A program made the position numbers and the translations under genes. Source: an uncultured Candidatus Saccharibacteria bacterium (lineage in GTDB: Bacteria; Patescibacteriota; Minisyncoccia; Phycocordibacterales; DATDWN01). From it: a stretch of DNA of 64,000 nucleotides. The DNA lies in contig CAYXWL010000001.1 of NCBI GenBank assembly GCA_964468795.1, positions 147,587 through 211,586 of the forward strand, read 5' to 3'. The notes under the pieces were generated by a model. That model ran no database searches. It worked only from the letters and a program-made list of their open reading frames with translations, and had not been told where the DNA came from. Below, piece by piece: positions 19,538-37,748 of this stretch; the first letter of the stretch is position 1; each line of letters begins with the position of its first letter.

Positions 19538-19592
19538 TATCCAGACAAAAAATTACAACTACGTTTTATATGTGCGGGATACTGGAATATTG

Positions 19593-19933: not shown

Positions 19934-19977
19934 GATTGAAACTTCGCGATTTGAAAGCCTTTGATATTTTTTAAATA

Positions 19978-20913: not shown

Positions 20914-21049
20914 ATATTATCTCATTAAATATGAATTTCTTACAAACAAGACCCGAAAGCATTTGAAATAAAAAATATTGACTTCTGGCTAAATAAATAA
21001 AGCTGTGCAATACTTTAATCAGAAAACGCATTGCCTAATGGAGGGTTCC

Positions 21050-21571: not shown

Positions 21572-21584
21572 CTTCCAAAAAACA

Positions 21585-21620
21585 CGCTCCGAACATTTTG
21601 TTCGGAGCGTGAGTTTTATT
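21585..21620 (+). terminator. rho-independent terminator
   Basis: cgctccgaac-atttt-gttcggagcg followed by a T-rich tract. Confidence 0.65.
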
Positions 21621-21625
21621 CCTGT

Positions 21626-21650
21626 GGAGGATAGGAGAATTTCGATCCCT
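21626..21650 (+). other. att-like degenerate copy of the tRNA-Ser(GGA) 3' end (candidate attL)
   Basis: ggaggataggaga (13/13 identical to tRNA-Ser 35900..35912) then atttcgatccc vs ttcgaactcc in the tRNA; same orientation as the tRNA copy at the other end of the island. Confidence 0.4.
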
Positions 21651-21926
21651 ATTGGGTCAGTACCCCAGGATATAATATTTCACTTCGCTCATATTATATC
21701 TCAATCGGGCTTCGAATCTCACACAGAGCAATAACATTGCTCTGCTCTATCCTCCTTGTAAAAATTTCATTTTTTGCGGAGGGTATTAGACGAAGTTAGA
21801 ACCTCGTTAATGCTTTCAGATTACACTAAATTCAGCATTGTTAAAAGATGGTAAAAGAAAAATGGGCAAGCAACTTGATGCTCGCCCATCTAGGTTTTAG
21901 TCGAAGACTTTATTAAAGAAAGGGGT

Positions 21927-22739
21927 TCAGTGGTTAGCTGAACCCAGAACCATTTGAAATGCTCTCTTAAGATACAATCGAACCTTTTCGAGGTTAAGCT
22001 TGTCATTTTCGTCCCGGAGCTTTCCTTCGGCGTCAATCGATAGATTAGGAAATTCTTTGACCAACGGCTCGATTAAGCCCAGAGTTTCGCAACACAAACC
22101 GCCAGCGATGCCAATTCCCATTTCCGGGTAATCTCCTCTGACTTCACGCAGGTATTTTGTACCCTTGTTTTGGTCGAATGGTTGGCCTTTGCCACCGCTT
22201 GGGTCGATAAGAACCGCATCAACTAGCCAAGAGCAACAAGCTCTGTGGTCGTAAATCAAATGAATCAAACCTCCGAGATGACCAAGACCGTCAACCTCTG
22301 CGAGAACCCTTCCTCCCATTTGCACGACCAGAAACTTGTCGGGATGGGAGTCTTGGTAATTTCGCAATGCCGTTGCTTCTGGCCATCTAACATTGAGTTG
22401 AAAACCGTCAAAGTTCCCAGACCCAACCAGCTCGGTAATTTCGTAGAGTTCGTTTTGAAGTCGGTCGTGGTGGTCCGTGCTGTAATGAATCAGATTTAAT
22501 GCTCTTTCATTTTTCACGAATATTCCAGACACATCTTCCTTTTTCGGGTATCTGCCTGGATATTTATTGGTCATACCTGCCAGAGTTTTCGAACTCATCA
22601 GCACACCGACCATAAGACGATGTGTAGGTTTTTCTGGAACCATGTTCAACGCTTCAACCACCTCGGCGTTGGACATAAATCCAGTAATCCCTATGTACGG
22701 CCCCGTTTTGGCGACAACCCTGTTTCTTGTAAGGAACAT
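21927..22739 (-). CDS. TrpF-like phosphoribosylanthranilate-isomerase family protein (TIM barrel), orphan
   Basis: C-terminal half matches TrpF (VLIDPSGGKGQPFD…, IGIAGGL…, …IDAEGKLRDENDK…) and N-terminus has IGITGF; no other trp genes nearby; AGGAGG RBS; start taken at ATG 22739. Confidence 0.45.
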   Translation of the reverse strand: MFLTRNRVVAKTGPYIGITGFMSNAEVVEALNMVPEKPTHRLMVGVLMSSKTLAGMTNKYPGRYPKKEDVSGIFVKNERALNLIHYSTDHHDRLQNELYEITELVGSGNFDGFQLNVRWPEATALRNYQDSHPDKFLVVQMGGRVLAEVDGLGHLGGLIHLIYDHRACCSWLVDAVLIDPSGGKGQPFDQNKGTKYLREVRGDYPEMGIGIAGGLCCETLGLIEPLVKEFPNLSIDAEGKLRDENDKLNLEKVRLYLKRAFQMVLGSANH

Positions 22740-22809
22740 TAGAACCTCCTGAAAAGATACTGCAATATTTTCTGTAAAAAAGCAAAAAGAAAACCGAGTT
22801 GCCTCGGTC

Positions 22810-23346
22810 TTAATTTTTGAACAATTCTTCCATTTTATATAATGCCCGGACATTCGGCGGGTCGGTAACCAGCTCTCTGGCTTCGGCAATAGTCGCCCAT
22901 TTGGTGGTATGGAACTCTTTCGGGTCCACATTAAATTCCGAGCCATCAGTCGGAAACCGATACCACAAATCAAGGTGCTCCTTGCAAGGTTGGACCCGAT
23001 TGACGATTGGTGTAATGGTCAGAAGGAATGGTTTGATGTGGTTTTGAATGCGATTAGCCACCCCAAGCTCTTCTTCAATCTCTCGGTTTAAGGTCTGCAT
23101 CAAGGTCTCACCCCGGTCTATGTGACCGCCGGGTGAAAGCCATAGGCCAGATTTCTTGTGATGAACGATGAATACCTGCTTGGTATCTGGATTGTAAGGA
23201 AGAAAATAACAGCAGAAATGGCTCATGTTGCCGTCATCTCTGGTTAGCTGGCCTTGGGCCAGACGAGCTGACCAATAATCTGCAATAGCTTGATTGCAGA
23301 GCGATGGGTTGATTTCAGCCCCAATTTCAGTTTGTAAATTGTCCAT
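22810..23346 (-). CDS. Nudix hydrolase
   Basis: Nudix box GGHIDRGETLMQTLNREIEEELGV; start taken at ATG 23346 (GGAG RBS; the ORF-track start is TTG). Confidence 0.8.
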   Translation of the reverse strand: MDNLQTEIGAEINPSLCNQAIADYWSARLAQGQLTRDDGNMSHFCCYFLPYNPDTKQVFIVHHKKSGLWLSPGGHIDRGETLMQTLNREIEEELGVANRIQNHIKPFLLTITPIVNRVQPCKEHLDLWYRFPTDGSEFNVDPKEFHTTKWATIAEARELVTDPPNVRALYKMEELFKN

Positions 23347-23394
23347 GTTTTTCTCCAAAATTAAGATTACTCAAAATAATTTGTAATGCAACAT

Positions 23395-24375
23395 TTAAAA
23401 AAGAGAATTTCTAAACTCTTCAAAGTGTTCGGAAAGATTTTTAATGCGAGGGAAATCAGTTCCCAAAAACTTATCAACTCTGTGATTATCATTTAGATAA
23501 TGCTCACTTTCTGACCACAATCCGTGGATTGATTTGAGATAATATAACTTTAATCCTCTTGTTAACTCATCTTCGGATATGGGATAAGTTTTTCGGTATG
23601 AATCCATATATAATTTGGCACGGCTTATATTTTCTTCGCTCAAATCATCGCATAGAAAACTATACATCATACATTTAAATAATTCGTGTGTTCGTGGAGA
23701 ATAGCTGGTTTTTTCAAAGTCAAAAACCCACGAAATTTTATCGTTGCCACCAAAGAAAACATTATGGTCGGTGTAATCTCCGTGAATAAGATGGTCGCTT
23801 GATAAGTTCAAATCCTCATAAACAACTGTGTTCTCTTGAACCAGCTGTTTTTTCAGATTAAGGCTTTTCAAAGCCGATTCATCAAAATCGTCAAAATTTG
23901 TTTTCTTTTGAATTTCGTTTATGACCAGTTCTATTTTAGCCAAGCTTTTTTCCTTGTTCCATGGTTTAAATTTGCCTGAAACAGGCAACTTTGCATCTCT
24001 TCCTAACAAATGGATTTTGCCAAGCATTTCTCCAAGCGAGACAATAGCGGTTTCTGTTAATTCCTTTCCGCTCAACTGCTTATCCAACACAAAAGGAAAA
24101 AGTGCATAGCAACCATCTTCAAATGAAAAATATGTGCTTCCTTCTTTGTTGGTTATAGGAAGAATTACAGGAATATTACCGTCAGAAAAATATCTTTTTA
24201 CAGATTGAATTTCCTCCACCTTTTCTTTGGCATCTGGAGCGTATTGTTTGAGAAAATACCTCGTATCTCCATCAATGAGAATATGGTTTTCAGAAAGTGA
24301 ACCCTTCTTCACTTTTTCGTGATATTGAAGGTTTAGACCATATAAGTTGCTGGTATGTTTTAGCAGAGTATCCAT
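23395..24375 (-). CDS. APH/ChoK/FN3K-fold small-molecule kinase
   Basis: Brenner motif HGDYTDHNVFF and downstream VFDFE (DFG-like), 326 aa. Confidence 0.65.
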   Translation of the reverse strand: MDTLLKHTSNLYGLNLQYHEKVKKGSLSENHILIDGDTRYFLKQYAPDAKEKVEEIQSVKRYFSDGNIPVILPITNKEGSTYFSFEDGCYALFPFVLDKQLSGKELTETAIVSLGEMLGKIHLLGRDAKLPVSGKFKPWNKEKSLAKIELVINEIQKKTNFDDFDESALKSLNLKKQLVQENTVVYEDLNLSSDHLIHGDYTDHNVFFGGNDKISWVFDFEKTSYSPRTHELFKCMMYSFLCDDLSEENISRAKLYMDSYRKTYPISEDELTRGLKLYYLKSIHGLWSESEHYLNDNHRVDKFLGTDFPRIKNLSEHFEEFRNSLF

Positions 24376-24376
24376 A

Positions 24377-24778
24377 TTATTTCAAAATTTGAGGTATGAA
24401 ATCACGAGAAATTTTTCTGACTTGGGCCGAGGTTTTTCCTAAAATAGCAGATTTCATCAAGCGGTGTAAGCCATCTAAAATAAGCCAGCGACCTTTGTTT
24501 TCCATTATGTCTATGGGATGCACAAGGTCAGCTTTCATTGTTCTTTCGTATTCCTCCTTATGTGCTTCTGGATTATCTATAACTTCCTGTGGTTTGAGAT
24601 TATAAACCCCATTTTCCCAAAGGAAAGGAATATCAAAATGCCAAGTCAGCTCATCTGTACTGATTTCCTCTGGCCCCACTTCCAAAGCCCAGACTTTTTC
24701 TTCACTCCAGTCAAAATCAAAACCAACATCCTTGATGATTTGTGGAATTTCATTTGAATTGTTTTTTATTTCTTCCAT
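24377..24778 (-). CDS. hypothetical protein with ParB/Srx-like motif
   Basis: 133 aa; C-terminal …GRWLILDGLHRLMKSAILG… resembles the ParB/sulfiredoxin-fold DGxHR signature; translationally coupled to neighbours (TAATG overlap). Confidence 0.3.
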   Translation of the reverse strand: MEEIKNNSNEIPQIIKDVGFDFDWSEEKVWALEVGPEEISTDELTWHFDIPFLWENGVYNLKPQEVIDNPEAHKEEYERTMKADLVHPIDIMENKGRWLILDGLHRLMKSAILGKTSAQVRKISRDFIPQILK

Positions 24779-25311
24779 TATTTTTTATAAAATCCTGTAT
24801 CGGGGCAGGTTATCTGAATGAAAGCGTTTCGCAACGCCTCTTCCAAGCTGACTTCCCGTAGGATTGTTCCACCAGAATATGTGCCCCAAGTATCATTCGG
24901 CAGTTTTCCATATTCTTCTTCAATAATTGTCATCACATCGGAGTGTTCCATTTTGAGTTCGTCCATTTTCTTGAGAATAAAGTCTGGGACCTTTAATCCG
25001 CTTGAATAGCCGTAATACTCCTTGTCCTCAGTAATAATAACAGCCCAAGCTTCCTCATATATGTGCCCATATCGCTCTATAAGGCCACTTTCAAGACCTA
25101 TATAGTAATTTGCATCAGAGTGGCGAGATTTACTGTCCAACGCTCTGTTTTTTGCTCCATCAAAAGTTTGTTTGTCCCACGGAGTGTCTGGCATCAGCGA
25201 TTTGGCTCCGTAACTTTGTATTGAAACATCTTTATCGGCAAAAAACTGCTTGATGATTTTTTCAGCAATTTTTATTTTTCTATCACTTGATGAGCCGATT
25301 ACGAATTTCAT
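24778..25311 (-). CDS. YjjX/DUF84-like non-canonical NTP pyrophosphatase
   Basis: MKFVIGSSSDRKIKIAEKI…GAKNRALDS…YYIGLESGL pattern matching inosine/xanthosine triphosphatase (YjjX) family. Confidence 0.55.
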   Translation of the reverse strand: MKFVIGSSSDRKIKIAEKIIKQFFADKDVSIQSYGAKSLMPDTPWDKQTFDGAKNRALDSKSRHSDANYYIGLESGLIERYGHIYEEAWAVIITEDKEYYGYSSGLKVPDFILKKMDELKMEHSDVMTIIEEEYGKLPNDTWGTYSGGTILREVSLEEALRNAFIQITCPDTGFYKK

Positions 25312-25871
25312 TTTAGTGTCAAATGTTTTTTAAGTTTTTCCAATGCCAATTTTCTCATACTGAATGAGTTTTTTTCTTCGGCAGTCAGTTCACCAAAAGT
25401 TTTGGAATAGCCCTCTGGCTGGAATATAGGGTCCCAACCAAATCCAGTGCCTCTTGGTGATACAGTCGTTCCTTTTACTGCACCTTCAAAAAATTCAATG
25501 TTTCCGTCTAAATCAGAATGACCAATAATCGTTTTTGCTTCTGCGTTAAAATTTCCGAAAACAGTAATCATTTTATACAACCCATCGTTCCCGACAGTTT
25601 TCATAAACCATTTTATAAGAGGACCTGGCAAACCATTCATTGCTTCAAAATACAAAGATGTGTCCTCAACAATAAACTCACCCTTGTGATGTTTCTGGGC
25701 TTCTTCCAGCTTTGCCTTGATGATTTTGTGGGCATCAATTTCCTGTATTTCGGGAAGGTCAATATCCAATCCTTCTATAAAGTCGCCAAGAATTGCCTGA
25801 ACTTCTGCTAGCTTGCCTTTATTGCCAGTGAGAAAATAGAGTGGCGTCATATTAAGAATAATATAACACAA
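25308..25871 (-). CDS. RdgB/Ham1-family dITP/XTP pyrophosphatase
   Basis: LTGNKGKLAEV, EDTSL, NGLPGP, FGWDPIF motifs of Ham1/Maf-like ITPases; probable true start at the MTPLYF ATG (about 25850); 4-nt overlap with the downstream gene. Confidence 0.8.
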   Translation of the reverse strand: MCYIILNMTPLYFLTGNKGKLAEVQAILGDFIEGLDIDLPEIQEIDAHKIIKAKLEEAQKHHKGEFIVEDTSLYFEAMNGLPGPLIKWFMKTVGNDGLYKMITVFGNFNAEAKTIIGHSDLDGNIEFFEGAVKGTTVSPRGTGFGWDPIFQPEGYSKTFGELTAEEKNSFSMRKLALEKLKKHLTLK

Positions 25872-25903
25872 AAATTCATTTTACCCCATTATTCATATTT
25901 TGA

Positions 25904-26221
25904 TTAAGGTAAAAAATTTATTCTTATATAATCCCAAAAACTATATGCATAATCAATTATTTCTACACCAGTACTAGTAGGAGGTTGACCACATTTTGGA
26001 CATAGAAGTGCTTTATCGCTATCATATCTTATTCTACAAGGCTCACAGTAGCAGAGGTTGATACGAGTAGGCTTGTGTCGCATTTTTAAGTCTCTGAAAT
26101 GCTCATATGTATATTTAGACTCAAATTTTAGACCGCATACAGGGCAATTTTCTAGTTTCAATTTATTCTTGAACTCGTCTCTGCAACTAACACATGCTTG
26201 TATAAATCCGATTAGTTCCAT
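25904..26221 (-). CDS. double zinc-ribbon protein (four CxxC pairs), hypothetical
   Basis: C11xxC14, C26xxC29, C58xC60xxC63, C74xxC77. Confidence 0.4.
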   Translation of the reverse strand: MELIGFIQACVSCRDEFKNKLKLENCPVCGLKFESKYTYEHFRDLKMRHKPTRINLCYCEPCRIRYDSDKALLCPKCGQPPTSTGVEIIDYAYSFWDYIRINFLP

Positions 26222-26273
26222 ATTTTGCTATTATGCGTTTAATAATTGAAGGATAAGAAATGGTAGGGTTAAA

Positions 26274-26837
26274 TTATTTTGTAAACTTAAGTGAGGAAAT
26301 GATTATTCCTTCTTCTGTCATTGATTGGGTTCCATTCTCATCCCACATCAAAGAAATGACTATGCGATATTTATTATTTGGTGTATTTACGACAACCCAA
26401 GTACCGCCATCCATAGTAATCGCTTCTTGCCCGTCAATATTTAAAACATTGTAACCCTCTGAGAGGTCTTTCTTCGCATCATTTTTTAGCCATTCAAGAG
26501 GTGTAACACCTTTATTATTTTTAGACATCTCTATATGTATTCCACCATATGGGTCGCTTTTGCTTTCTAAAATTGATTTTGGCCAGATGTATAACTCAAC
26601 GGGTTCAAACTTATTTTCCACAAACATATGAGGCGGATACTGAAATGAAAAACCAACATCGCTTTTATAGGTCAGAAAACTTTTTTCATATTCATAATAT
26701 TCGTCTGAACCAACAATACTAGGTATGGGATTATGAGTTACTTCAGCGATTTTTGTCTCTTTATGTCTACTGTAGTAAAAAGTAAATGATATTACGCATA
26801 GAATGATAACAATTGATATAAGTATTTTTTTATTCAT
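26274..26837 (-). CDS. membrane-anchored secreted hypothetical protein
   Basis: N-terminal TM/signal anchor (MNKKILISIVIILCVISF); start moved to ATG at 26837 to avoid overlap with res. Confidence 0.4.
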   Translation of the reverse strand: MNKKILISIVIILCVISFTFYYSRHKETKIAEVTHNPIPSIVGSDEYYEYEKSFLTYKSDVGFSFQYPPHMFVENKFEPVELYIWPKSILESKSDPYGGIHIEMSKNNKGVTPLEWLKNDAKKDLSEGYNVLNIDGQEAITMDGGTWVVVNTPNNKYRIVISLMWDENGTQSMTEEGIIISSLKFTK

Positions 26838-26866
26838 ATTTTGATTCAGTATGCAACTTATTACTT

Positions 26867-29095: not shown

Positions 29096-29096
29096 A

Positions 29097-30791
29097 TTAT
29101 TTTTTGAAAATACGCCTATATACCCGCAAAATAACTTCGGGTATCGGGGCTACTGTTACTTTTTCTTTGACATCTTCAAATTCTTCTTCAAAGGTGTCAT
29201 CGCCGAGAGAGAAAATGTAAACACTCCATTTTCCGCCAATTTTGGCGATGTCTTTTTTGAGAGACGAGATAGAACCTTCGTCAAAAAGAATGGCTGTATA
29301 TTGCTTTTCATTCTTGAAAATTTTTATGGCCATGGTTTCCTTCACTTCCTCAAAAGTGTTTTCTCTGACACAGAGCATCTCCGTAGCTTCTCTGGTTAGA
29401 GTCTCCTTGTTTTTATCGTTTGGCTCGGCTTCTACGAAAGCCGTGCGGAAGTATTTCAAATTGCTAGGTATGCCAGTTATATCTTTGTAATCTTTATGAC
29501 CAGCGATAACAGATTTAATTCGTGGATAGCATACTTCTGTTGCGATGCCATTTTCATTGTTGGTGCAGAGAATAAATTGGCGTAATCCGTTATCTCTTTT
29601 ATTTAGCAGTGAGACAGCGTGTCCAGTAGTTCCACTTCCAGCAAAAAAGTCCAAAATCACCGCATCCTTTTTATCTTTAGCTGTGGCTAATAGACATTCT
29701 TCAACCGCATATAATGACTTTGGGAAAGGAAACATTGTGCCAGTCAGCCCATTAACCATCTTTGAACCATACTCGTTTGCATCATATTTAGGTCCAACCC
29801 AAACAGTCTTATATGGAGCCTCATCTTTGGAGCGATATATTTCAAACCTGCCTTTAGAAGTCTTCTTTATGTGCAACTCTGAAATTATTTCTTCAACAGT
29901 ATTTCTTGAATAAGACCATTTCCTTTCAATACTGTTTATGTCTATAGGCCAAACCTCAAATACACCCTTTTTTATTTCAGTAGTTTGTTTTTTGGGATGA
30001 AATTTCTCATCTGCCACTTCGCCTACACCAATAATTTTTTCGCCAGATACTATAAATGGGTAAAAACAGGTTTTTGCTGTATGACGAGGGGAATTGCTTC
30101 CGTCAACTCTGAAATTTCTCACCAGAGTTTCTTCACGAAGTGCATTACTTATATATTTTTCCTTGGCATCTGGATAAACAAAAACAGCATACTCGTGATT
30201 ATATGAAAAATTTTTACCCTGAACTCCTCGGGGATTGTGAACCACTGAAATTGAATCAACTTTTTTGCCTACAAAAATTTGTTTAAGCAGGAGTACCAGA
30301 TTAGCGTGTTCGTTTTCATCAATGGCACAAATCAGACAACCATTCTTTTTCAAAAGATTTTTCGCAAGGACCAATCTTCTCTCCATCATGCTCAACCATT
30401 TGCTATGTCTGTATGAGTCATCTTTATCTACATAATTATTGTTATATTTCCAATTTTTTGCTCCCGTATTGTAAGGCGGGTCAATATAAATAACATCAAT
30501 CTTGCCTTTATGTGTGTAGTTTAATACAGAAAGAGCGTGGTAATTATCTCCTTCAATAAGTAGGTTTGTGGGGGTATTTTTATTTTTGAAAATATGCTTA
30601 TTTTTTACCTCTTTCAAAACAGGCAATTCAGTATTGCATTGCTCAACAACATCTTCTATCTTTTCCTCCCAAACCAATCCATATTTTTTGCGTTTTCGTA
30701 AACGCTCAATTTCTGCAACAAATTGCTCTTTGGTCCAATTACCATATTTATCTGTTTCCACCACAATAGGTGATTGTAATTTTTCAGGCAT
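29097..30791 (-). CDS. mod: Type III R-M Mod subunit (beta-class N6-adenine DNA methyltransferase)
   Basis: DPPY motif IV (IYIDPPYNTG) precedes motif I (LDFFAGSGTTGHA), the beta-class order typical of Type III Mod. Confidence 0.8.
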   Translation of the reverse strand: MPEKLQSPIVVETDKYGNWTKEQFVAEIERLRKRKKYGLVWEEKIEDVVEQCNTELPVLKEVKNKHIFKNKNTPTNLLIEGDNYHALSVLNYTHKGKIDVIYIDPPYNTGAKNWKYNNNYVDKDDSYRHSKWLSMMERRLVLAKNLLKKNGCLICAIDENEHANLVLLLKQIFVGKKVDSISVVHNPRGVQGKNFSYNHEYAVFVYPDAKEKYISNALREETLVRNFRVDGSNSPRHTAKTCFYPFIVSGEKIIGVGEVADEKFHPKKQTTEIKKGVFEVWPIDINSIERKWSYSRNTVEEIISELHIKKTSKGRFEIYRSKDEAPYKTVWVGPKYDANEYGSKMVNGLTGTMFPFPKSLYAVEECLLATAKDKKDAVILDFFAGSGTTGHAVSLLNKRDNGLRQFILCTNNENGIATEVCYPRIKSVIAGHKDYKDITGIPSNLKYFRTAFVEAEPNDKNKETLTREATEMLCVRENTFEEVKETMAIKIFKNEKQYTAILFDEGSISSLKKDIAKIGGKWSVYIFSLGDDTFEEEFEDVKEKVTVAPIPEVILRVYRRIFKK

Positions 30792-30794
30792 GAT

Positions 30795-30849
30795 GACTAT
30801 GAGTACCTACACCACATAATGTATCACAAAAATAGTGGTACTCATAGTC
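30795..30849. promoter_or_regulatory. C-box-like operator: perfect 13-bp inverted repeat GACTATGAGTACC…GGTACTCATAGTC
   Basis: Arms at 30795..30807 and 30837..30849 separated by 29 nt, in the mod / C-gene divergent region; GACT…AGTC symmetry as in known controller-protein operators; ends 38 nt upstream of the HTH gene. Confidence 0.45.
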
Positions 30850-30886
30850 CGTCGCCTTATAGACATCAGACCTCTAGGCTTAAGGC

Positions 30887-31108
30887 ATGAGCAAGAGTAG
30901 CCCCATTTTAAAGAAATTTGGAAAGCGAGTAATAGAACTCCGCTTACAAAAAGGCTTCACTTCCCAAATTGCTTTAGCTAATAAAGCCAATATGGACCGA
31001 ACCTATATTGGTGGCATTGAGCGAGGTGAAAGGAATATCTCCTTGGTTAATATTGAAAAGCTGGCAAAGACGCTTGGTATCAGTTTGGAAGAATTGTTCA
31101 GACTCTAA
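30887..31108 (+). CDS. XRE-family HTH protein, controller (C-protein)-like
   Basis: 73 aa, Cro/C1-type HTH (…QIALANKANMDRTYIGGIERGERNISLVNIEKLAKTLGISLEELF). Confidence 0.75.
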   Translation: MSKSSPILKKFGKRVIELRLQKGFTSQIALANKANMDRTYIGGIERGERNISLVNIEKLAKTLGISLEELFRL

Positions 31109-31139
31109 ACAAGGTGTATTCTTAAGTGAAAAGAACGCC

Positions 31140-32354
31140 ATGATTTCTAGCAATCTAGAACGCCATTTTCATAGCTTTATTGAGGAGACAAATCTTCTTA
31201 ATTTTTCTAAAGGTTTAGCCGAATATTTGGAGTATGTATTCAGTGTGCCAGAACTAAAAAATGTTTTTTCACAACAGCTCGGGGAAAGAAATGCTGATTA
31301 TGCAAAATTGAATGAGCTTGCTGAAAAAAATCTTGCTGAAATTAAGGAGGCAAAAACAAAACTTATTAAATGTTTAAAAAAGAGAAAAATTTATATTGAT
31401 GACTTGAATCGTATTTTTACTCACCCCCACAACACAGGAAGGAATTTTTTTGAAGAGCTGGATGCTTTTGAAAAAGGAGATGGTTTGTATTCTAGTATGT
31501 CATTGGCTGATGTAATTGATAATTATCTTTTTGATATGGCAGTAAATTTACTCAATGCTGGTTATCAAGAAGATGTTGAGGAATTTTTAGCTAGACCGGA
31601 CGATTATACTGTGAATAAGGTATGTCGTAATGATTATATTATGATTGATGGTCATCCAGGGTCTTTTGTGTTCTCTAGGGCATATTTTGAGCGTCAAAAT
31701 ATGAAAAAGTTTATTGAACAAGGTAGAGTATTAAAAACTTGGGGAGAATTTGAAAAACTTTATCAATTTAGACAAGGATATAAAGAAAGCTTGGGTATAC
31801 ATGACCCTATGAAAGATTGGGAGCATGGCCCGGGAGAATTTGGTATTGATGAGGATTTGATATATATAGCCAGAATCCATAATGAATTGAATAACTTGGT
31901 AAAAAAACATGGACCATTTCCGCGAGAAGATAACCCCTTGGAATATTTGTCGCAGAGTAAATTTGTCCAACCAGTCAAAACGGTTCACAATATTTTGATG
32001 CTTGTCGCATCAAGTAACAAAAAGGAAGAAAAAAATGAATCCGGTCTTTGGATTTCTAAAAATAAGACCACAGGTGAGTATTATTTTGATGATAACAAAA
32101 TCCATTTTCCTAGCCCAAATGCAAAATATGTAAAAATTTTTGAAACCGTGTATGAAATTATCCCGAAAGGTGGTCGCATTTCTTATTCCCAAATTACTAA
32201 ATATAAGAAGTCAGAAGTGCAGAGGGCGTTGACTGGAGAAAATGCCAACTTTTTTCATTATGTTAAATCGGCAAGACGTACTCCCCAGAAAGGCATCCCA
32301 CTTTTTCATGCATCAAGCGACGGAAAAGAGCTGATTTTCAATAATCAGCGTTAA
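31140..32354 (+). CDS. hypothetical 404-aa protein downstream of the C-protein gene (candidate restriction/abortive-infection effector)
   Basis: No recognisable motifs; start taken at ATG 31140 (the longer ORF-track start overlaps the HTH gene); followed by terminator 32384..32412. Confidence 0.5.
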   Translation: MISSNLERHFHSFIEETNLLNFSKGLAEYLEYVFSVPELKNVFSQQLGERNADYAKLNELAEKNLAEIKEAKTKLIKCLKKRKIYIDDLNRIFTHPHNTGRNFFEELDAFEKGDGLYSSMSLADVIDNYLFDMAVNLLNAGYQEDVEEFLARPDDYTVNKVCRNDYIMIDGHPGSFVFSRAYFERQNMKKFIEQGRVLKTWGEFEKLYQFRQGYKESLGIHDPMKDWEHGPGEFGIDEDLIYIARIHNELNNLVKKHGPFPREDNPLEYLSQSKFVQPVKTVHNILMLVASSNKKEEKNESGLWISKNKTTGEYYFDDNKIHFPSPNAKYVKIFETVYEIIPKGGRISYSQITKYKKSEVQRALTGENANFFHYVKSARRTPQKGIPLFHASSDGKELIFNNQR

Positions 32355-32383
32355 CTCATCTCATCTCGTTTGTGGATTATCTG

Positions 32384-32412
32384 AAAAATCACCGCTCCAG
32401 TGGTGATTTTTT
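32384..32412 (+). terminator. rho-independent terminator
   Basis: aaaatcacc-gctccagt-ggtgatttt followed by a T-run. Confidence 0.6.
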
Positions 32413-32603
32413 GGCTACGAATAAAGAAAAAATATTTAAACAGAAGAATCCAGAGAAGTACAGACGACCTATCAGACTTGAAATAATGGCTTTAAGCCAA
32501 GCTTTTCCTTGTACGACTTGGAACGCCCAAAACATGCAAGCCAATTTTTTGCTTGACCTGTCCCAGGCGTTCGGGATGGTTCAAGCAAAAAGCGGGCTTC
32601 ACT

Positions 32604-32780
32604 ATGTTACCAGAAGAAGCCATTAAAGAATTTAAAATTCTTTACAAAAAAGTTTTTGGTATAGAGCTCACAGATAGTGAGGCAATTTTTCGTGCCAATA
32701 ATCTTTTGAGACTCTACAAAGTCATTTACAAGGCATCTCCTGCGAACATGGTCAAAGGAACGCAAAATGGCCAGGTATGA
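32604..32780 (+). CDS. small hypothetical ORF
   Basis: 58-aa ORF (MLPEEAIKEFKILYKK…) in the island; weak support. Confidence 0.2.
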   Translation: MLPEEAIKEFKILYKKVFGIELTDSEAIFRANNLLRLYKVIYKASPANMVKGTQNGQV

Positions 32781-33177
32781 CCCACGAAAAATTTCTCAAC
32801 ACAAAAGTTACACAATCAAAGAATTGTCAGAGCTTTTGGAAATGAGTGAAAAAACCTGCGGTCGGTGGATTGAGCAGGGGTTGCCGACTGTTCCAGGTAG
32901 CCACAAGCCGATTCTCATACTAGGTGATGATGCAAAAATTTTTATTAGAAACAGGAATATTAAGGTCGTAATTAAGTTAAAACGCCATGAGTTTAATTGT
33001 TTTAAATGTAAGTGCCCGAGACGGGCCAAGAAGGGTTCAATAGGTGTATCCGGGAACATAAAAAGGGGGTTGTGCAGTGTTTGCAACTCAAAAATGTGCA
33101 AGACAATTCACCCTACCAAAAAGGACTATAAGATACCGCCTACTCCTACACAAATGTCCATGTTTAACAATATTTAA
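32767..33177 (+). CDS. HTH + zinc-ribbon DNA-binding protein (excisionase/regulator-like)
   Basis: YTIKELSELLEMSEKTCGRWIEQGLP helix-turn-helix, then CxxC…CxxC; immediately upstream of the recombinase genes. Confidence 0.45.
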   Translation: MARYDPRKISQHKSYTIKELSELLEMSEKTCGRWIEQGLPTVPGSHKPILILGDDAKIFIRNRNIKVVIKLKRHEFNCFKCKCPRRAKKGSIGVSGNIKRGLCSVCNSKMCKTIHPTKKDYKIPPTPTQMSMFNNI

Positions 33178-33190
33178 TCTTATCACTATA

Positions 33191-34288
33191 ATGACAAATT
33201 TCAGCTACAAAAATGAGCAAATTAAGAGGCAGTTTTTTGAGCATCTAAAAGGGGCCGCTGGCTTCGCCGATGAGTCCATAGATAAGTTTGCGGAAGCGGT
33301 TTATCAATGGCAGATTTTCAGCGGAGATGAGGATTTTGAAACTTTCAATAAAGAGAAGGCATCTAAATTCTGTGAATGGCTCAAAACAAAAGAGGCAAAG
33401 ACCAGTTCTGGCAAGCTGTCTTTGCCAACCCAATATAATTATCTCCGTAGAGTTAAGAAGTTTTTCACTTGGCTTACTGAACAACCAGATTACAGAAAAA
33501 GTATTCGTAAAACAGATGTGGATTTTTTGAGATTATCCAAAAAGGATGCTCGTATTGCTACTTCCGGCACAACAAAAAGGATACCGACTTTTGACGAAGC
33601 TAGAAAGGTAATAGAAAGCATAGAAATTGAAAATGAAATTGACCAACGAGATAGGGCCATCCTTTCCTTTGCCCTTATTACTGGTATGCGTATTTCAGCC
33701 ATTTCAACTTTGAGAATGAAGAATTTTGACAGAGAAAGCGAATTGATTGACCAAAATCCTGGCGATGGAGTGCAGACCAAATATTCAAAAAAGATACTCA
33801 CTACTTTTTTCCCGATAGGATGGGATGGACCAAAAAAATACTTTCTTGAATGGTACGACTATCAACTTGCTCGAGGAGCAAAACCAAATGAACCGATTTT
33901 TCCTTCAACTAAAAAAGGATTTTCAGAAAAAAGTTTTAGCAAGACGCTTGTGAGCGAGGATTTTTGGAGCAGTTCCGGTGGTGCAAGAAAAATCTTTGAG
34001 AAAAGGTGTATAGATGCTGAAGTGCCATATTTTCATCCTCACTCTTTCAGACATTTGATTGTGTCTGTAATGAGCAAGACCAGGTTGACGGAAGAAGAAA
34101 AGAAAGCAGTCAGTATGAATCTTGGCCATGACAATGTGGGCACCACTTTCGGCTCGTATGGCTATGGTGGTATGAGTTTGCATGATGCTGTAAATATCGT
34201 TAAAAAAATCACTTTAAACCAAAATGACGATATTCAGATTTCATCGGACGAAAGAGATGTTTTGCTAAAACTATTGAAGAAATTATGA
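33191..34288 (+). CDS. tyrosine-type site-specific recombinase / integrase
   Basis: C-terminal catalytic region with HPHSFRHL (HxxR) and LGH…Y; SAM-like N-domain. Confidence 0.8.
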   Translation: MTNFSYKNEQIKRQFFEHLKGAAGFADESIDKFAEAVYQWQIFSGDEDFETFNKEKASKFCEWLKTKEAKTSSGKLSLPTQYNYLRRVKKFFTWLTEQPDYRKSIRKTDVDFLRLSKKDARIATSGTTKRIPTFDEARKVIESIEIENEIDQRDRAILSFALITGMRISAISTLRMKNFDRESELIDQNPGDGVQTKYSKKILTTFFPIGWDGPKKYFLEWYDYQLARGAKPNEPIFPSTKKGFSEKSFSKTLVSEDFWSSSGGARKIFEKRCIDAEVPYFHPHSFRHLIVSVMSKTRLTEEEKKAVSMNLGHDNVGTTFGSYGYGGMSLHDAVNIVKKITLNQNDDIQISSDERDVLLKLLKKL

Positions 34289-34305
34289 TATAATTAAGTA
34301 TCACT

Positions 34306-35925
34306 ATGAACGCCACACCAAAACTCATTTATGGTAATTATTGCAGAAAATCCACGGAGTCGGAAGACCGTCAGATGCTTTCTATTGATTCACAAATTGA
34401 TGAAGGGAAAAAGATTGCTGATACGCTGGGCATAAAAATTGCTCCAAATCATCTCCTCACTGAATCTAAATCAGCTAAAACCACAGGAAAGAGGGCTAAA
34501 TTTGAGGAGATGTTGAGAATGATTGAAAAAGGTGAAATAAACGCCATCATCGCCTGGCATCCAGACAGACTTTCAAGAAATTCCATTGATGCCGCTCGGC
34601 TTATTGAACAGATGGATAAAGGCAACCTTATAGAAATAGTAACTCCCGGCCAGGCCTACAAAAATACTCCGATTGATAAGTTTATGCTCATGCTCCAATG
34701 CAGTCAGGCCAAAATGGAAAATGACAAAAAGGGCGTTGATGTAAGAAGAGGATTGCATAAAAAAGCCAGTCTTGGAAAGTATCCAGGACCGGCCCCTATC
34801 GGCTATAAAAATGATAAATATGCAGAAAAGGGAGATAAGGTTCCTCTGCCGGACGAAGAAAGATTTCCACTTGTCCGAAAAATGGTAGACCTTATTCTCA
34901 CGGGAAATTACACAGTTGCCCAAGTCTGGAGGATGGCAAAAGATGAATGGGGTGTAACTATGCCAAGCGGAAAGAAAATCGGCAGGGCTACTGTTTACAG
35001 AATTTTTTCAAATCCTTTTTATTACGGAAAATATGAGTACCCTCTAAAAAGCGGAAATTGGTATGACGGAGTTCACACCAAATTGATGGAGCCAGAAGAA
35101 TACGACAAAATCCAGTTTCTCCTTGGTAAAAAAGGAAAACCTCGCCCAAAATCTCACATCTTTGATTTTACTGGCATGATGCGATGCGGAGAATGCGGAG
35201 CGGCTATCACTGCCGAGTTGAAAATTAAAAAACAGAAAAACGGCAATATTCATTCCTATATCTATTACCACTGCACCAAACGGGTAAATCCAAATTGCTC
35301 GCAAGGGTCCATAGAAGAAACGGAGTTGAAGAAACAAATCATTAAGGAAATTCAAAGCATAGAAATTCCGTCTGAATTTCACAGCTTTGCTATGAAGTGG
35401 TTCAAAAAAGAAAACGAAAAAGAATCCAAGGAGCAAAACTCAATCGTTGATAGCCAGCAAAGATCATATAAAGCTTGTCTTGCGAAGATTAGTGGTCTTA
35501 CCGATATGAGAGCCGGTGGAGAAATTTCAGCAGACGAATTTGCTGAAAAACGGTCCGTACTTTTGTCTGAAAAGAAAAAACTAGAGGACTTGTTTGCCCA
35601 GACCGGTAAGCGAGTAGACAAATGGGTTGAGACTGGAGACAGGATGTTTGATTTTATTGAGAACGCCAAATTCAAATTTGAAAATGGTCCGATTGAAACA
35701 AGACGGGAGATTCTTTCTACATTAGGTTCGGACCTCATCTTGAAAGACAAAATATTGAGTATTGATATAGACAATTCACTCTTTACATTAAAAAGAGTCT
35801 CAAAAACCTTGCACGGCATAAAGAAACGGTTAGAACCTGTAAAAAATGGCGATAAACAAAAAGAATTTGACCGTTTGTGCAGTCAAAATCTCGTAATGCG
35901 GAGGATAGGAGATTCGAACTCCTGA
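34306..35925 (+). CDS. large serine recombinase
   Basis: N-terminal resolvase domain (YCRKSTESEDRQ…), recombinase domain and zinc ribbon (CGECGAAIT…YYHCTKR); its last 27 nt overlap tRNA-Ser. Confidence 0.8.
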   Translation: MNATPKLIYGNYCRKSTESEDRQMLSIDSQIDEGKKIADTLGIKIAPNHLLTESKSAKTTGKRAKFEEMLRMIEKGEINAIIAWHPDRLSRNSIDAARLIEQMDKGNLIEIVTPGQAYKNTPIDKFMLMLQCSQAKMENDKKGVDVRRGLHKKASLGKYPGPAPIGYKNDKYAEKGDKVPLPDEERFPLVRKMVDLILTGNYTVAQVWRMAKDEWGVTMPSGKKIGRATVYRIFSNPFYYGKYEYPLKSGNWYDGVHTKLMEPEEYDKIQFLLGKKGKPRPKSHIFDFTGMMRCGECGAAITAELKIKKQKNGNIHSYIYYHCTKRVNPNCSQGSIEETELKKQIIKEIQSIEIPSEFHSFAMKWFKKENEKESKEQNSIVDSQQRSYKACLAKISGLTDMRAGGEISADEFAEKRSVLLSEKKKLEDLFAQTGKRVDKWVETGDRMFDFIENAKFKFENGPIETRREILSTLGSDLILKDKILSIDIDNSLFTLKRVSKTLHGIKKRLEPVKNGDKQKEFDRLCSQNLVMRRIGDSNS

Positions 35926-35985
35926 AGGGATTGCTCCCTTACCCGCTTTCCAAGCGAGCGCACTAGACCACTATGCGAACCCTCC
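35899..35985 (-). tRNA. tRNA-Ser (anticodon GGA), class II
   Basis: GGAGGGT/ATCCTCC acceptor stem, anticodon loop TTGGAAA, long variable arm, T-arm AGGAG-TTCGAAT-CTCCT. Confidence 0.7.
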
Positions 35986-36027
35986 GTTTCTATATCATGT
36001 TATAGAAATACAAAATTATTTCAAATA

Positions 36028-36474
36028 CTAATACTCGTCTATCACTATCTTCTTTTGTTTCATCATTACATTCCAACCATTTGGTTTTGCCAAAAGCTCA
36101 CCTAAATTTTTTGGAATTACCTGCCATCTTAGACCGTATTTATCTATACACCATCCGCACTGAACCTCCTTCCCTTCCTTTGTAAAATAATTCCAATAAT
36201 TATCAATCTCATTCTGATCATCGCATTCTATAGTCAAAGCAAAAGCATCGTTAAAGCTGTCATGCGGAATTTCAGTATTCATTATTGAATACTTTTGGCT
36301 AAATATGTGTGCTTCGCATATTTGTGTTTTACCGCTAGGAGTTTCTCCTATATTCTGAACATTTCCTGCAGTAAAAACTTCCCCAAAAACTTCTTTATAA
36401 TACTCAAGAATATTTGAAATATCTCCTCCGTCCACAGAAAACCACAATGATGGAACGATTTTATTTTGATTCAT
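36028..36474 (-). CDS. PhnB-like VOC (glyoxalase-fold) protein
   Basis: IVPSLWFSVDGG… and DKYGLRWQV signatures of the PhnB/3-demethylubiquinone-MT-like family. Confidence 0.55.
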   Translation of the reverse strand: MNQNKIVPSLWFSVDGGDISNILEYYKEVFGEVFTAGNVQNIGETPSGKTQICEAHIFSQKYSIMNTEIPHDSFNDAFALTIECDDQNEIDNYWNYFTKEGKEVQCGWCIDKYGLRWQVIPKNLGELLAKPNGWNVMMKQKKIVIDEY

Positions 36475-36504
36475 ATTGATATTATATTATCACTGATCAT
36501 ACCT

Positions 36505-36542
36505 CAGACAAAACAAAAGGAGAGTGGCTGTCCCACTCTCCT
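36505..36542 (-). terminator. terminator of the GC-rich Nudix gene
   Basis: aggagagtgg-ctgtc-ccactctcct stem followed on the minus strand by a U-rich tract. Confidence 0.55.
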
Positions 36543-36555
36543 ACTAAATCTATTT

Positions 36556-37071: not shown

Positions 37072-37097
37072 ATCTGCCTCCTCCGTAAGATAGACTA

Positions 37098-37694: not shown

Positions 37695-37748
37695 TAAATT
37701 ATATTACCACGAAAGTTAAACACTGCAGATAAATCAATTTTGCTTGTT

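What the first reader, a model, noticed from the sequence alone, without database searches (positions are those of the whole stretch)
21626..35985. About 14 kb integrated element at tRNA-Ser(GGA) with dual recombinases and defence/nucleotide cargo
tRNA-Ser(GGA) (35899..35985, minus) is overlapped by the last 27 nt of a large serine recombinase gene; a tyrosine recombinase and an HTH/Zn-ribbon Xis-like gene lie just upstream. About 14 kb away, immediately after a strong terminator, the 13-mer ggaggataggaga recurs exactly (21626..21638) followed by a degenerate continuation (atttcgatccc vs ttcgaactcc in the tRNA), in the same orientation, as expected for an attL/attR pair created by integration into the tRNA 3' end. 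A 9-bp inverted copy (ctatcctcc, 21747..21755) lies 100 nt further on. Everything between is cargo: nucleotide operon, Zn-ribbon gene, Type III R-M, C-protein module.
Basis: partly seen in the sequence, partly recalled or inferred. Interest (0 to 1): 0.7.

Follow-up and report, generated by a model that had tools for sequence, protein, structure and literature searches.

The report
Serine-integrase island at a tRNA gene
A 14.1-kb mobile element sits in the last bases of a tRNA-Ser gene of an uncultivated Patescibacteria (CPR) bacterium; it was put there by a large serine recombinase whose own gene runs across the insertion site, an enzyme class that was thought not to use tRNA genes.

Summary
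Two metagenomic contigs, 100% identical to both flanks, lack the element and join window 21782 directly to the tRNA. The element is 14,122 bp and is bounded by an 8-bp direct repeat TGCGGAGG (21775-21782 and 35897-35904), the last bases of tRNA-Ser(GGA). The 13-mer at 21626 and its inverted 9-mer belong to a ~130-nt palindromic, tRNA-end-like stretch that is already present in the empty site.

The integrase is the large serine recombinase, not the tyrosine recombinase:
- Its reading frame crosses the crossover point, so integration replaces its conserved last 23 residues.
- At least 521 relatives exist in species-representative genomes, nearly all Patescibacteria. In 55-64 of the best 80 loci the gene ends antisense in a tRNA 3' end, mostly with no tyrosine recombinase nearby.
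- One relative is a 9,885-bp circle carrying the full-length gene.
- A T-loop-like heptamer lies 5 bp further from the core in attP than in attB, as in characterised serine integrases.

The role of the tyrosine recombinase remains open.

The parts
21626..21755 (.). Pre-existing palindromic stretch that resembles the tRNA-Ser 3' end. It is NOT part of the island.
   Evidence: Present unchanged in the empty sites L001 and L002. Folds with z = -5.6 on either strand. No Rfam hit and no other copy in the window or about 100 loci. An independent attL flank (L114) has the same layout.
21775..21782 (+). attL core TGCGGAGG (left copy of the 8-bp direct repeat)
   Evidence: The alignments of the empty-site contigs to the window switch flanks exactly here.
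21783..21854 (+). P' arm of attP. It is the orphaned coding segment for the last 23 residues of the serine recombinase (VLDEVRTSLMLSDYTKFSIVKRW*) and holds the TTAGAAC heptamer.
   Evidence: Joining 35904 to 21783 restores a 556-aa ORF whose tail matches the conserved tail of relatives. The same orphan segment is found at 11 other attL junctions. The heptamer lies 5 bp further out than in attB.
21783..35896 (.). Island-specific DNA. The element is 14,122 bp when one core copy is counted.
   Evidence: Absent from L001 and L002, present in L004 and L005, and the flanks are 100% identical. GC 38.5% against 40.3% for the rest of the window.
21927..26221 (-). Cargo operon: unknown 348 aa (21927..22973), NUDIX (22810..23358), APH-like kinase (23395..24375), 133-aa protein (24377..24778), NTPase_I-T (24778..25311), Ham1/RdgB XTP/dITP diphosphatase (25308..25871), Zn-ribbon protein (25904..26221). 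Some start codons are uncertain.
   Evidence: Pfam and NCBIfam. Ham1, the NTPase and the 133-aa protein are 88%, 84% and 77% identical to cargo of the related island in L009.
26274..26897 (-). 207-aa protein with a weak, sub-threshold PsbP_2-like match; function unknown
   Evidence: Pfam E = 1.8e-5, below the curated cut-off.
26867..30791 (-). Type III restriction-modification genes: Res 26867..29095 and Mod 29097..30791
   Evidence: ResIII/DEAD/Helicase_C and N6_N4_Mtase domains. A Mod-Res pair is also carried by the related island L009, by L015 and by the 9,885-bp circle.
30887..32354 (+). HTH_3 regulator (30887..31108) followed by a 404-aa protein of unknown function (31140..32354)
32538..32599 (.). 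Imperfect palindrome (27-nt arms, 8-nt spacer) just upstream of the recombinase operon; candidate operator or tyrosine-recombinase site
   Evidence: the repeat finder I4. A comparable palindrome sits at the same place in L012. Function not tested.
32604..33177 (+). Conserved 58-aa ORF (32604..32780) and the HTH_17 + C4 zinc-ribbon protein (32767..33177)
   Evidence: Both are conserved in L009 and in the circle, at 50-56% and 46-50% identity. Weak HTH_17 match.
33191..34288 (+). Tyrosine recombinase, 365 aa, with catalytic residues intact and no arm-binding domain
   Evidence: Phage_integrase domain. R167, K197, H284, R287, H313 and Y323 are near-invariant in 23 homologues. A homologue sits next to the serine recombinase gene in 17 of 20 close loci but in only 4 of 60 distant loci.
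34306..35925 (+). Large serine recombinase in its integrated form (539 aa). The last 7 codons and the stop are supplied by the antisense strand of the tRNA.
   Evidence: Pfam. Catalytic-site residues are invariant in the family. The AF2 model shows catalytic, recombinase and Zn-ribbon domains plus a long coiled coil. C-terminal classes were compared.
35897..35904 (+). attR core TGCGGAGG. It is the last 5 bases of the acceptor stem, the discriminator base and 2 more nt of tRNA-Ser(GGA), read antisense.
35898..35985 (-). tRNA-Ser(GGA), left intact by the insertion. It forms the B' half of attB, with the T-loop heptamer TTCGAAC at core position 17-23.

Best explanation
Window 21783..35904 is a 14.1-kb integrative element of a Patescibacteria (CPR) bacterium. 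A large serine recombinase (LSR) inserted it into the extreme 3' end of tRNA-Ser(GGA).

Shown:
- The same chromosome exists with and without the element.
- The junctions are an 8-bp core, TGCGGAGG.
- The tRNA stays intact.
- The LSR reading frame runs across the crossover. The free (attP) form would encode 556 aa ending in VLDEVRTSLMLSDYTKFSIVKRW. The integrated form encodes 539 aa ending in IGDSNS, read from the antisense tRNA.
- This arrangement recurs through a large, mostly CPR family that targets Ser, Gln, Asn, Glu, Gly and other tRNAs.
- A relative exists as a 9,885-bp circle.

Inferred:
- The LSR, not the neighbouring tyrosine recombinase, catalyses attP x attB.
- Its zinc-ribbon domain reads the T-loop heptamer of the tRNA gene in attB and a TTAGAAC copy placed 5 bp further out in attP.
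- The acceptor-end core sets which tRNA is used.
- The tail swap, and the absence here of the 60-aa HTH_17 gene that precedes the LSR in all close relatives (a candidate directionality factor), probably bias this copy towards staying integrated.
- The tyrosine recombinase is an accessory of one subclade. It most likely resolves multimers of the circular form or gives a second integration route.
- The Type III R-M genes act as defence or addiction cargo. The Ham1/NTPase/NUDIX/kinase genes act as nucleotide-pool cargo.
For: Empty and occupied sites:
- L002 (ENA) and L001 (Logan) are 100% identical to both flanks and join 21782 to the tRNA. L004 and L005 carry the element. L003 and L008 break exactly at 35897.

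LSR identity:
- Domains, invariant catalytic residues, AF2 architecture with a long coiled coil, and a distant match to the SPbeta integrase structure 9dxh.

The ORF spans attP:
- The reconstructed 556-aa tail equals the conserved tail of P0002, P0007, P0011, P0025 and P0028, and resembles that of relatives only 51-54% identical.
- Differences in the tail fall mainly at third codon positions, and synonymous changes are at least as frequent as non-synonymous ones.

The family:
- At least 521 relatives in species-representative genomes. The best 80 are almost all Patescibacteria MAGs.
- In 55 of 80 the LSR 3' end overlaps an antisense tRNA 3' end: Gln 25, Asn 19, Ser 4 and others. Nine more show a T-loop motif at a contig end.

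Elements without a tyrosine recombinase integrate the same way:
- L079, L083 and L101 have core repeats, an orphan tail at attL and LSR-tRNA at attR.
- A tyrosine recombinase is adjacent in only 4 of 60 distant loci.

Other evidence:
- A second complete element of the tRNA-Ser clade lies on one contig, L116. Eleven further attL junctions exist.
- Free circle: five assemblies give the same 9,885-bp circle in different rotations, with a full-length LSR.
- The heptamer is at core+17 in attB (6 of 6) and core+22 in attP (12 of 12, counting synonymous variants of its first base). It is at +16 against +21 in four other clades.
- That 5-bp shift is the zinc-ribbon-domain motif offset described for serine integrases (PMC3783163).
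Against: - No experiment supports any of this, and no read-level evidence for excision of this particular copy was available.
- An exact search for its attP junction in JGI metagenomes and IMG/VR found nothing.
- A catalytically intact tyrosine recombinase sits next door, and tyrosine recombinases are the classical tRNA integrases.
- The P arm shows no clear mirror image of the TTAGAAC motif, and the left arm of attB is not conserved between hosts.
- The AF2 confidence for the tail is low (pLDDT 40-58), so a structural role for it is not shown.
- The conserved DEVRT codons coincide with the DNA motif, so part of the tail's conservation may act at the DNA level.
- No replication or transfer genes were recognised.
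Confidence: 0.85

Rival explanations
1. The tyrosine recombinase (33191..34288), helped by the HTH_17 'Xis-like' protein, is the integrase that put the element into the tRNA. The serine recombinase does something else, such as resolution or inversion.
For: - Tyrosine integrases are the known tRNA-targeting class (PMC4383910 and PMC7192596).
- The gene is intact, with all catalytic residues.
- It sits near the tRNA-proximal end with an HTH_17 gene upstream.
- The pair is conserved in the closest relatives.
Against: - The crossover lies inside the serine recombinase ORF and splits a conserved protein tail.
- Fifty-six of 60 more distant loci have no adjacent tyrosine recombinase yet keep the LSR-tRNA junction.
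- Three such elements are fully delimited by core repeats.
- The att arms show the 5-bp motif offset typical of serine integrases (PMC3783163).
- Identity between attP and attB is only 8 bp, and the element restores no longer tRNA fragment.
- The protein has no arm-binding domain.
Confidence: 0.07
2. One reading: the 13-mer at 21626..21638 is attL and the element spans 21626..35912.
For: The 13-mer is an exact, non-random direct repeat of the tRNA 3' end, followed by a degenerate T-arm. That is the classical signature of a displaced tDNA fragment.
Against: Two independent empty-site contigs contain 21626..21782 unchanged, directly next to the tRNA. Their alignments switch flanks at 21775..21782. 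The DNA just right of 21782 is the conserved P' arm found at 11 other attL junctions.
Confidence: 0.02
3. The element is a decayed, fixed remnant that can no longer move. The presence/absence polymorphism reflects only one old insertion, or a deletion by other means.
For: - This copy lacks the 60-aa HTH_17 gene that overlaps the LSR start in all close relatives.
- No attP junction of this element was found.
- The integrated LSR lacks its native tail.
Against: - The flanks of empty and occupied contigs are 100% identical over kilobases, so the event is recent.
- All ORFs of the recombination module are intact, as is the orphan tail ORF at attL.
- The empty site is precise to the base, as expected of site-specific recombination.
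Confidence: 0.2
4. It is a prophage or a phage satellite.
For: It integrates at a tRNA with an integrase, and it carries small ORFs of unknown function.
Against: - No capsid, tail, terminase or replication families in Pfam or PHROGs.
- 14 kb with about 4 kb of R-M genes.
- LSR relatives in INPHARED phages are at most 26% identical.
- No hit in IMG/VR for the attP pattern.
Confidence: 0.03

Closest known systems
Serine-integrase (LSR) integrative elements and phages: A118/LI, Bxb1, phiC31, SPbeta, SCCmec Ccr
   Same: - Same enzyme architecture: catalytic, recombinase and zinc-ribbon domains plus a coiled coil.
- Short att sites with only a few bp of identity.
- The zinc-ribbon-domain motif lies 5 bp further out in attP than in attB (PMC3783163).
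- The integrase gene sits at the element end.
   Different: - The target is the 3' end of tRNA genes, across a whole family and several tRNA species. Characterised LSRs use protein-coding or intergenic sites.
- attP lies inside the integrase ORF.
- At most 26% identity to any phage or plasmid LSR in the curated collections.
- The hosts are Patescibacteria.
tRNA-integrated genomic islands driven by tyrosine integrases (Islander-type)
   Same: Site-specific insertion at a tRNA 3' end that leaves the tRNA functional, an integrase gene next to the tRNA, and variable cargo.
   Different: - The enzyme family differs.
- Only 8 bp are duplicated, rather than a tDNA fragment of tens of bp.
[quoted passage not shown]
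- TIGER found 14 of 297 S-Int elements at t(m)RNA genes and asked for experimental proof (PMC7192596).
Mx8 IntP/IntX and SSV-type 'suicidal' integrases
   Same: attP lies within the integrase ORF, so integration changes (Mx8) or splits (SSV) the integrase gene. Both use tRNA genes (PMC4383910 references 24 and 25; PMC7253208).
   Different: Those are tyrosine recombinases. Here a serine recombinase loses only its last 23 residues, and the orphan coding segment is kept intact at attL.
Elements that carry more than one recombinase, such as SCCmec CcrA/CcrB or Tn554 TnpA/TnpB (from my own knowledge, not tested here)
   Same: Two recombinase genes in one operon at the element end.
   Different: Here the two belong to different superfamilies (tyrosine + serine), and the serine enzyme works alone in most of the family.

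Membership tests
Large serine recombinase / serine integrase | N-terminal resolvase catalytic domain with the nucleophilic serine and conserved Arg residues | tested here: met
   PF00239 at residues 12-158. Y12, R14, S16, R63, R88 and R91 are invariant in 24 family members.
Large serine recombinase / serine integrase | Recombinase domain and zinc-ribbon domain with an inserted coiled coil | tested here: met
   PF07508 and PF13408. The AF2 model of the homologue P0002 (78% identical) has helices 359-404 and 410-461 between zinc-ribbon strands.
Large serine recombinase / serine integrase | Short att sites with a few bp of identity around the crossover | tested here: met
   An 8-bp core in the window and cores of 7-10 bp in five other delimited elements.
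Large serine recombinase / serine integrase | Zinc-ribbon-domain DNA motif shifted 5 bp outward in attP relative to attB (PMC3783163) | tested here: met
   For the tRNA-side arm, the heptamer is at +17 against +22 (Ser clade) and +16 against +21 (four other clades). The opposite arms show no clear motif.
Large serine recombinase / serine integrase | Catalyses attP x attB on its own and needs a directionality factor for excision | not testable with these tools
   A candidate factor is the 60-aa HTH_17 gene that overlaps the LSR start in close relatives. It is absent here.
Islander-type tRNA genomic island (tyrosine integrase) | A tyrosine integrase mediates the insertion | tested here: not met
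   The junction lies in the serine recombinase ORF, and relatives without a tyrosine recombinase integrate identically.
Islander-type tRNA genomic island (tyrosine integrase) | A displaced tDNA fragment marks the far end of the island | tested here: not met
   Only the 8-bp core is repeated at the true end. The longer 13-mer fragment at 21626 lies outside the island and is present in the empty site.
SSV/Mx8-type integrase gene spanning attP | attP lies inside the integrase ORF, so integration alters the gene product | tested here: met
   556-aa free form against 539-aa integrated form. The same holds across the family.
SSV/Mx8-type integrase gene spanning attP | Tyrosine recombinase chemistry | tested here: not met
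   The gene that spans attP is a serine recombinase.
Type III restriction-modification system | Adjacent mod (N6/N4 methyltransferase) and res (ResIII helicase-nuclease) genes | tested here: met
   PF01555 in 29097..30791 and PF04851/PF00271 in 26867..29095. Activity not tested.
Integrative conjugative or mobilisable element | Relaxase, oriT or type IV secretion genes | tested here: not met
   None appears among the Pfam, NCBIfam or PHROG matches of the island ORFs.
Prophage | Virion structural and packaging genes | tested here: not met
   No such families, and the element is only 14 kb.
Plasmid (autonomous replicon) | Circular form | tested here: inconclusive
   A relative forms a 9,885-bp circle in five assemblies. 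No circle was seen for this element.
Plasmid (autonomous replicon) | Replication initiator | tested here: not met
   No Rep family was detected. The unknown 404-aa protein has no convincing sequence or fold match.

The most novel reading that the evidence does not exclude
This is a Patescibacteria-wide family of serine integrases specialised on tRNA genes. The zinc-ribbon domain reads the near-universal T-loop sequence. The few codons of the enzyme's own C-terminus that overlie the core set which tRNA is hit, so retargeting needs only those codons to change. Integration swaps the conserved 23-residue tail and so acts as a built-in sensor of the integrated state that controls directionality or re-integration. 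The partner tyrosine recombinase gives the same element a second pathway, either resolution of the circle or integration at another site. That second pathway may also have left the tRNA-end palindromes seen beside attB here and in L114.
Probability: 0.3. Interest if true: 0.8.

Novelty: new variant of a known kind. Interest (0 to 1): 0.66.

Why it matters
Two papers state that serine integrases were not known to target tRNA genes (PMC4383910), or that the few computational cases need proof (PMC7192596). This window belongs to a family of hundreds of such enzymes that consistently end in tRNA 3' ends. The family comes with empty sites, fully delimited elements and a free circle, so the claim can be tested directly with short DNA substrates.

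Serine integrases need no host factors and are widely used as genome-engineering tools. Enzymes that recognise conserved tRNA sequence could offer landing sites already present in many organisms. They would also be a natural tool for Patescibacteria, which are hard to manipulate.

The integrase gene that rewrites its own C-terminus on integration is a serine-recombinase counterpart of the Mx8 and SSV cases. It offers a simple system for asking how such elements sense their own state.

Tried and rejected
- Rfam (E up to 10) and ARAGORN on 21600-21800 found no tRNA or known RNA in the 130-nt stretch.
- nhmmer and blastn of that stretch against the window and about 100 loci found no other copy, so it is not a repeated miniature element in the sampled data.
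- Orthologous tRNA-Ser(GGA) loci of related species (L103, L105, L107) lack the stretch and the island, so it is not a conserved RNA gene.
- A scan of 115 other tRNAs for an inverted copy of their acceptor 9-mer downstream found none.
- Exact attP-junction searches in JGI metagenomes and IMG/VR found nothing. The relaxed pattern returned attL junctions, not circles.
- PADLOC gave only a NUDIX-like PDC-S07 hit and a weak mad1 hit. No known defence system beyond the R-M genes was found.
- The tyrosine recombinase has no PDB relative by phmmer.
- The AF2 model of the long-form LSR gives low confidence for the tail, so it says nothing about what the tail does.
- Rfam and an ORF scan upstream of the tyrosine recombinase in L013 showed no tRNA or att signature. 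In L013 the LSR tail is unrecombined and the context looks chromosomal.
- The AFDB fold library was not available.
- Literature searches found no description of this family.

Full report
**Observation**

The window has tRNA-Ser(GGA) on the minus strand at 35898..35985. The ORF 34306..35925 is a large serine recombinase (LSR) with Resolvase, Recombinase and Zn_ribbon_recom domains, and its last 27 nt overlap the tRNA.

Directly upstream lie a tyrosine recombinase (33191..34288) and an HTH_17 protein with a C4 zinc ribbon (32767..33177).

The 13-mer GGAGGATAGGAGA is exact at 21626 and 35900, which is not a chance result. The degenerate continuation, the inverted CTATCCTCC at 21747..21755 and the 13-bp bidirectional terminator at 21583..21611 are all present.

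**The true boundaries**

I looked up the exact proteins of the two flanking genes in public assemblies. This returned contigs from several metagenomes that are 99.9-100% identical to the window.
- L002 (ENA ERZ27283013, 14.4 kb) aligns to window 44012..35897 and then continues at 21782..15455.
- L001 (Logan SRR13612670) runs from 20708 to 21782 and continues straight into the tRNA.
- L004 and L005 carry the element.
- L003 and L008 end exactly at 35897, as assemblies do at a polymorphic junction.

The empty site reads ...CTATCCTCCTTGTAAAAATTTCATTTTT-TGCGGAGG-ATAGGAGATTCGAACTCC.... The element is therefore 14,122 bp. It is bounded by TGCGGAGG at 21775..21782 and 35897..35904. This core is the last five acceptor-stem bases, the discriminator base and two more bases of the tRNA. 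The tRNA itself is untouched.

They were not made by this insertion.

**Host**

GroEL of the window is 80-82% identical to proteins of Zambryskibacteria, Paceibacterota and Minisyncoccia MAGs. The host is an uncultivated member of the Patescibacteria (CPR). Island GC (38.5%) is close to that of the rest of the window (40.3%).

**Which recombinase acts**

*The LSR frame runs across the crossover.* Joining 35904 to 21783, as in the excised circle, gives a 556-aa protein ending MRR-VLDEVRTSLMLSDYTKFSIVKRW. The integrated gene gives 539 aa ending MRR-IGDSNS, read from the antisense tRNA.

*The tail is conserved in relatives.* Among 120 homologues (50-79% identity) the C-termini fall into three classes:
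- the same conserved tail, present in P0002, P0007, P0011, P0025 and P0028 and recognisable in relatives only 51-54% identical;
- short ends such as MRRR*;
- tails such as ...DSNQDTLLQRQMSYH, which are antisense tRNA translated.

Codon comparison of the three long-form genes for which I have DNA shows that tail differences fall mainly at third positions, with synonymous changes at least as frequent as non-synonymous ones. The tail is therefore real coding sequence.

*The junction with a tRNA recurs across the family.* A scan of one genome per species found at least 521 relatives. The best 80 are almost all Patescibacteria MAGs.
- In 55 of the 80 the LSR 3' end overlaps the 3' end of an antisense tRNA: Gln 25, Asn 19, Ser 4, Glu 2, Gly 2, and Arg, Lys and Asp 1 each.
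- Nine more show a T-loop motif where the contig ends.
- The closest clade (75-78% identity) always reads ...AATCTCGTAAT|GCGGAGG... into a tRNA-Ser, whatever the anticodon.

*The tyrosine recombinase is dispensable for this.* It is adjacent in 17 of 20 loci with LSR identity of 55% or more, but in only 4 of 60 below that. Elements without it are delimited in the same way, with a 7-10-bp core plus an orphan tail segment at attL and LSR-tRNA at attR:
- L079 (tRNA-Gln);
- L083 (tRNA-Asn, in an Omnitrophota MAG);
- L101 (tRNA-Gly).

L116 holds a whole 8.2-kb tRNA-Ser element on one contig. Eleven further attL junctions with diverse chromosomal flanks carry TGCGGAGG followed by the orphan tail segment, which stays open through the W-stop in most of them.

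*The att arms behave as LSR sites.* The T-loop heptamer (TTCGAAC) lies at core position 17 in attB in 6 of 6 tRNA-Ser sites. A TTAGAAC-like heptamer lies at position 22 in the P' arm in 12 of 12 attL junctions, counting synonymous variants of its first base. Four other clades show +16 against +21. This 5-bp outward shift of the zinc-ribbon-domain motif in attP relative to attB is what Rutherford et al. described for the Listeria integrase and several other serine integrases (PMC3783163).

I conclude that the LSR is the integrase (confidence about 0.85). I infer that its zinc-ribbon domain reads the T-loop sequence.

**The free form**

Five Logan assemblies give contigs of 9,915 nt with 30-nt terminal overlaps. 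They are the same 9,885-bp circle in five rotations. The circle encodes a tyrosine recombinase, a 60-aa HTH_17 protein, a full-length LSR (66% identical, long tail), Res, Mod and small ORFs.

The genes shared by this circle, the related island in L009/L010 and the window are:
- a 58-66-aa ORF;
- the HTH_17/zinc-ribbon protein;
- the tyrosine recombinase;
- the LSR;
- Res and Mod.

No replication, transfer or virion genes were recognised. No close relative exists in curated plasmid or phage collections.

**The tyrosine recombinase**

It has the full catalytic set: R167, K197, H284, R287, H313 and Y323 are near-invariant in 23 homologues. It has a SAM-like core-binding domain but no arm-binding domain. 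It scores far below the Xer cut-offs.

Its role is not settled. The options are:
- resolution of multimers of the circle;
- a second integration route. L013, L014 and L026 carry an LSR with an unrecombined tail in what looks like chromosomal context with no tRNA;
- inversion.

An imperfect palindrome with 27-nt arms and an 8-nt spacer at 32538..32599, just upstream of the operon, is a candidate site. L012 has a counterpart.

**State of this copy**

All close relatives have a 60-aa HTH_17 gene overlapping the LSR start, a plausible directionality factor. The window has only 17 nt between the two recombinase genes and no trace of that gene. Together with the truncated tail, this suggests that the copy is biased towards staying integrated. 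The perfect identity of the flanks shows that the insertion is recent.

**Cargo**

Type III Mod and Res are carried by most close relatives. Ham1, NTPase_I-T and the 133-aa protein are 88%, 84% and 77% identical to cargo of the L009 island. That is more than the recombinases share (78% and 61%), so cargo modules are exchanged between elements.

I read them as nucleotide-pool 'house-cleaning' functions that would be useful to bacteria living on scavenged nucleotides. This is inference only.

The HTH_3 gene is followed by a 404-aa protein with only six homologues and no convincing fold match.

**The 130-nt stretch at 21626..21755**

On the + strand it consists of, in order:
- an antisense copy of the tRNA 3' end (acceptor strand, T-stem and a degenerate T-loop);
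- about 60 nt;
- a sense-orientation copy, TTCGAATCTCAC, then a 22-nt hairpin, then CTCTATCCTCC.

The core follows 19 nt later. The stretch folds strongly on either strand (z = -5.6).

It is absent from orthologous loci of related species. It has no Rfam match and no other copy. None of 115 other tRNAs has anything similar downstream.

Yet the attL flank of an independent element in another host has the same layout at the same distances from the core, written in that host's own tRNA-Ser letters (L114). It may be the scar of an older integration that duplicated a longer piece of the tRNA. I could not resolve it.

**Comparison with what is known**

The closest families are:
- serine-integrase elements, which share the enzyme and the att logic but not the target;
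- tyrosine-integrase tRNA islands, which share the target but not the enzyme or the way the tRNA gene is restored;
- Mx8 IntP and the SSV 'suicidal' integrases, which also have attP inside the integrase ORF but use tyrosine chemistry (PMC4383910, PMC7253208).

[quoted passage not shown] The TIGER paper found 14 of 297 serine-integrase elements at t(m)RNA genes and called for experimental proof. The large LSR survey of Durrant et al. does not mention tRNA. I found no description of this family in the searchable library.

**Verdict**

The finding is real and its gist is right, but the att sites were misplaced. The element belongs to a large, apparently undescribed, mostly Patescibacteria family of tRNA-targeting serine integrases whose gene spans attP. 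I rate it a new variant of a known kind, with interest 0.66.

Noticed in passing
window 21626..21755: A ~130-nt palindromic stretch built from an antisense and a sense copy of the tRNA-Ser 3' end. The sense copy is interrupted by a 22-nt hairpin. It is present in the empty site, folds with z = -5.6 on both strands, has no Rfam hit and has no other copy. It may be the scar of an older integration or a tRNA-end mimic.
   Followed up: partly
L114 4553..4706: An independent attL flank from another host has the same three-part layout at the same distances from the core (-153, -71 and -32 nt). The acceptor letters match that host's own tRNA-Ser. The interior cannot be aligned with the window's stretch.
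   Followed up: partly
window 32538..32599: An imperfect palindrome (27-nt arms, 8-nt spacer, centre GGCGTTC) lies directly upstream of the 58-aa ORF that opens the recombinase operon. L012 has a comparable one. L009 and the circle have only a short hairpin there.
   Followed up: partly
window 34289..34305: Only 17 nt separate the tyrosine and serine recombinase genes. All relatives at 75-78% identity have a 60-aa HTH_17 gene here that overlaps the LSR start, a candidate directionality factor. It is missing from this copy.
   Followed up: partly
L017-L021 (whole loci): Five assemblies from runs ERR12387302, ERR12387303, ERR12387307, ERR12387308 and ERR12387309 give the same 9,885-bp circular element in different rotations. 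It carries the long-tail LSR, a tyrosine recombinase and a Type III R-M system.
   Followed up: yes
window 24377..25871; L009 687..2465; L117 2370..2891; L118 4308..4847: The Ham1, NTPase_I-T and 133-aa (ASCH-associated) genes recur as cargo in related elements at 77-88% identity. That is higher than the identity of the recombinases, so the module moves between elements.
   Followed up: partly
[not shown]
   Followed up: yes
L013 8684..11653; L014; L026; L027: An LSR variant with a third tail type (...VLNEVRMYFELNPDDQ) whose attP is not recombined. It lies with its tyrosine recombinase next to chromosomal-looking genes (TruB, NifS-like, UvrD) and no tRNA. It may be integrated by another route.
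   Followed up: partly
L108-L118 (attL junctions): The orphan 23-codon tail segment left at attL stays an intact ORF, as far as its W-stop end, in most of 12 independent junctions. This suggests recent insertions or selection to keep excision possible.
   Followed up: partly
window 35897..35985: The tRNA-Ser(GGA) gene encodes no CCA. After integration it loses its native downstream region and the terminator at 21583..21611. Read-through from the tRNA would be antisense to the 3' end of the LSR gene.
   Followed up: no
window 21860..21891 and 21923..21945 (minus strand): Two terminator-like hairpins lie just inside the island's left end, after the last gene of the minus-strand cargo operon.
   Followed up: no
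L048, L053, L057, L059, L060, L075 and other loci: Several MAG records titled 'uncultured Gammaproteobacteria' carry this otherwise Patescibacteria-typical LSR next to a tRNA-Gln or tRNA-Asn gene. The labels may be wrong, or the host range may be wider.
   Followed up: no
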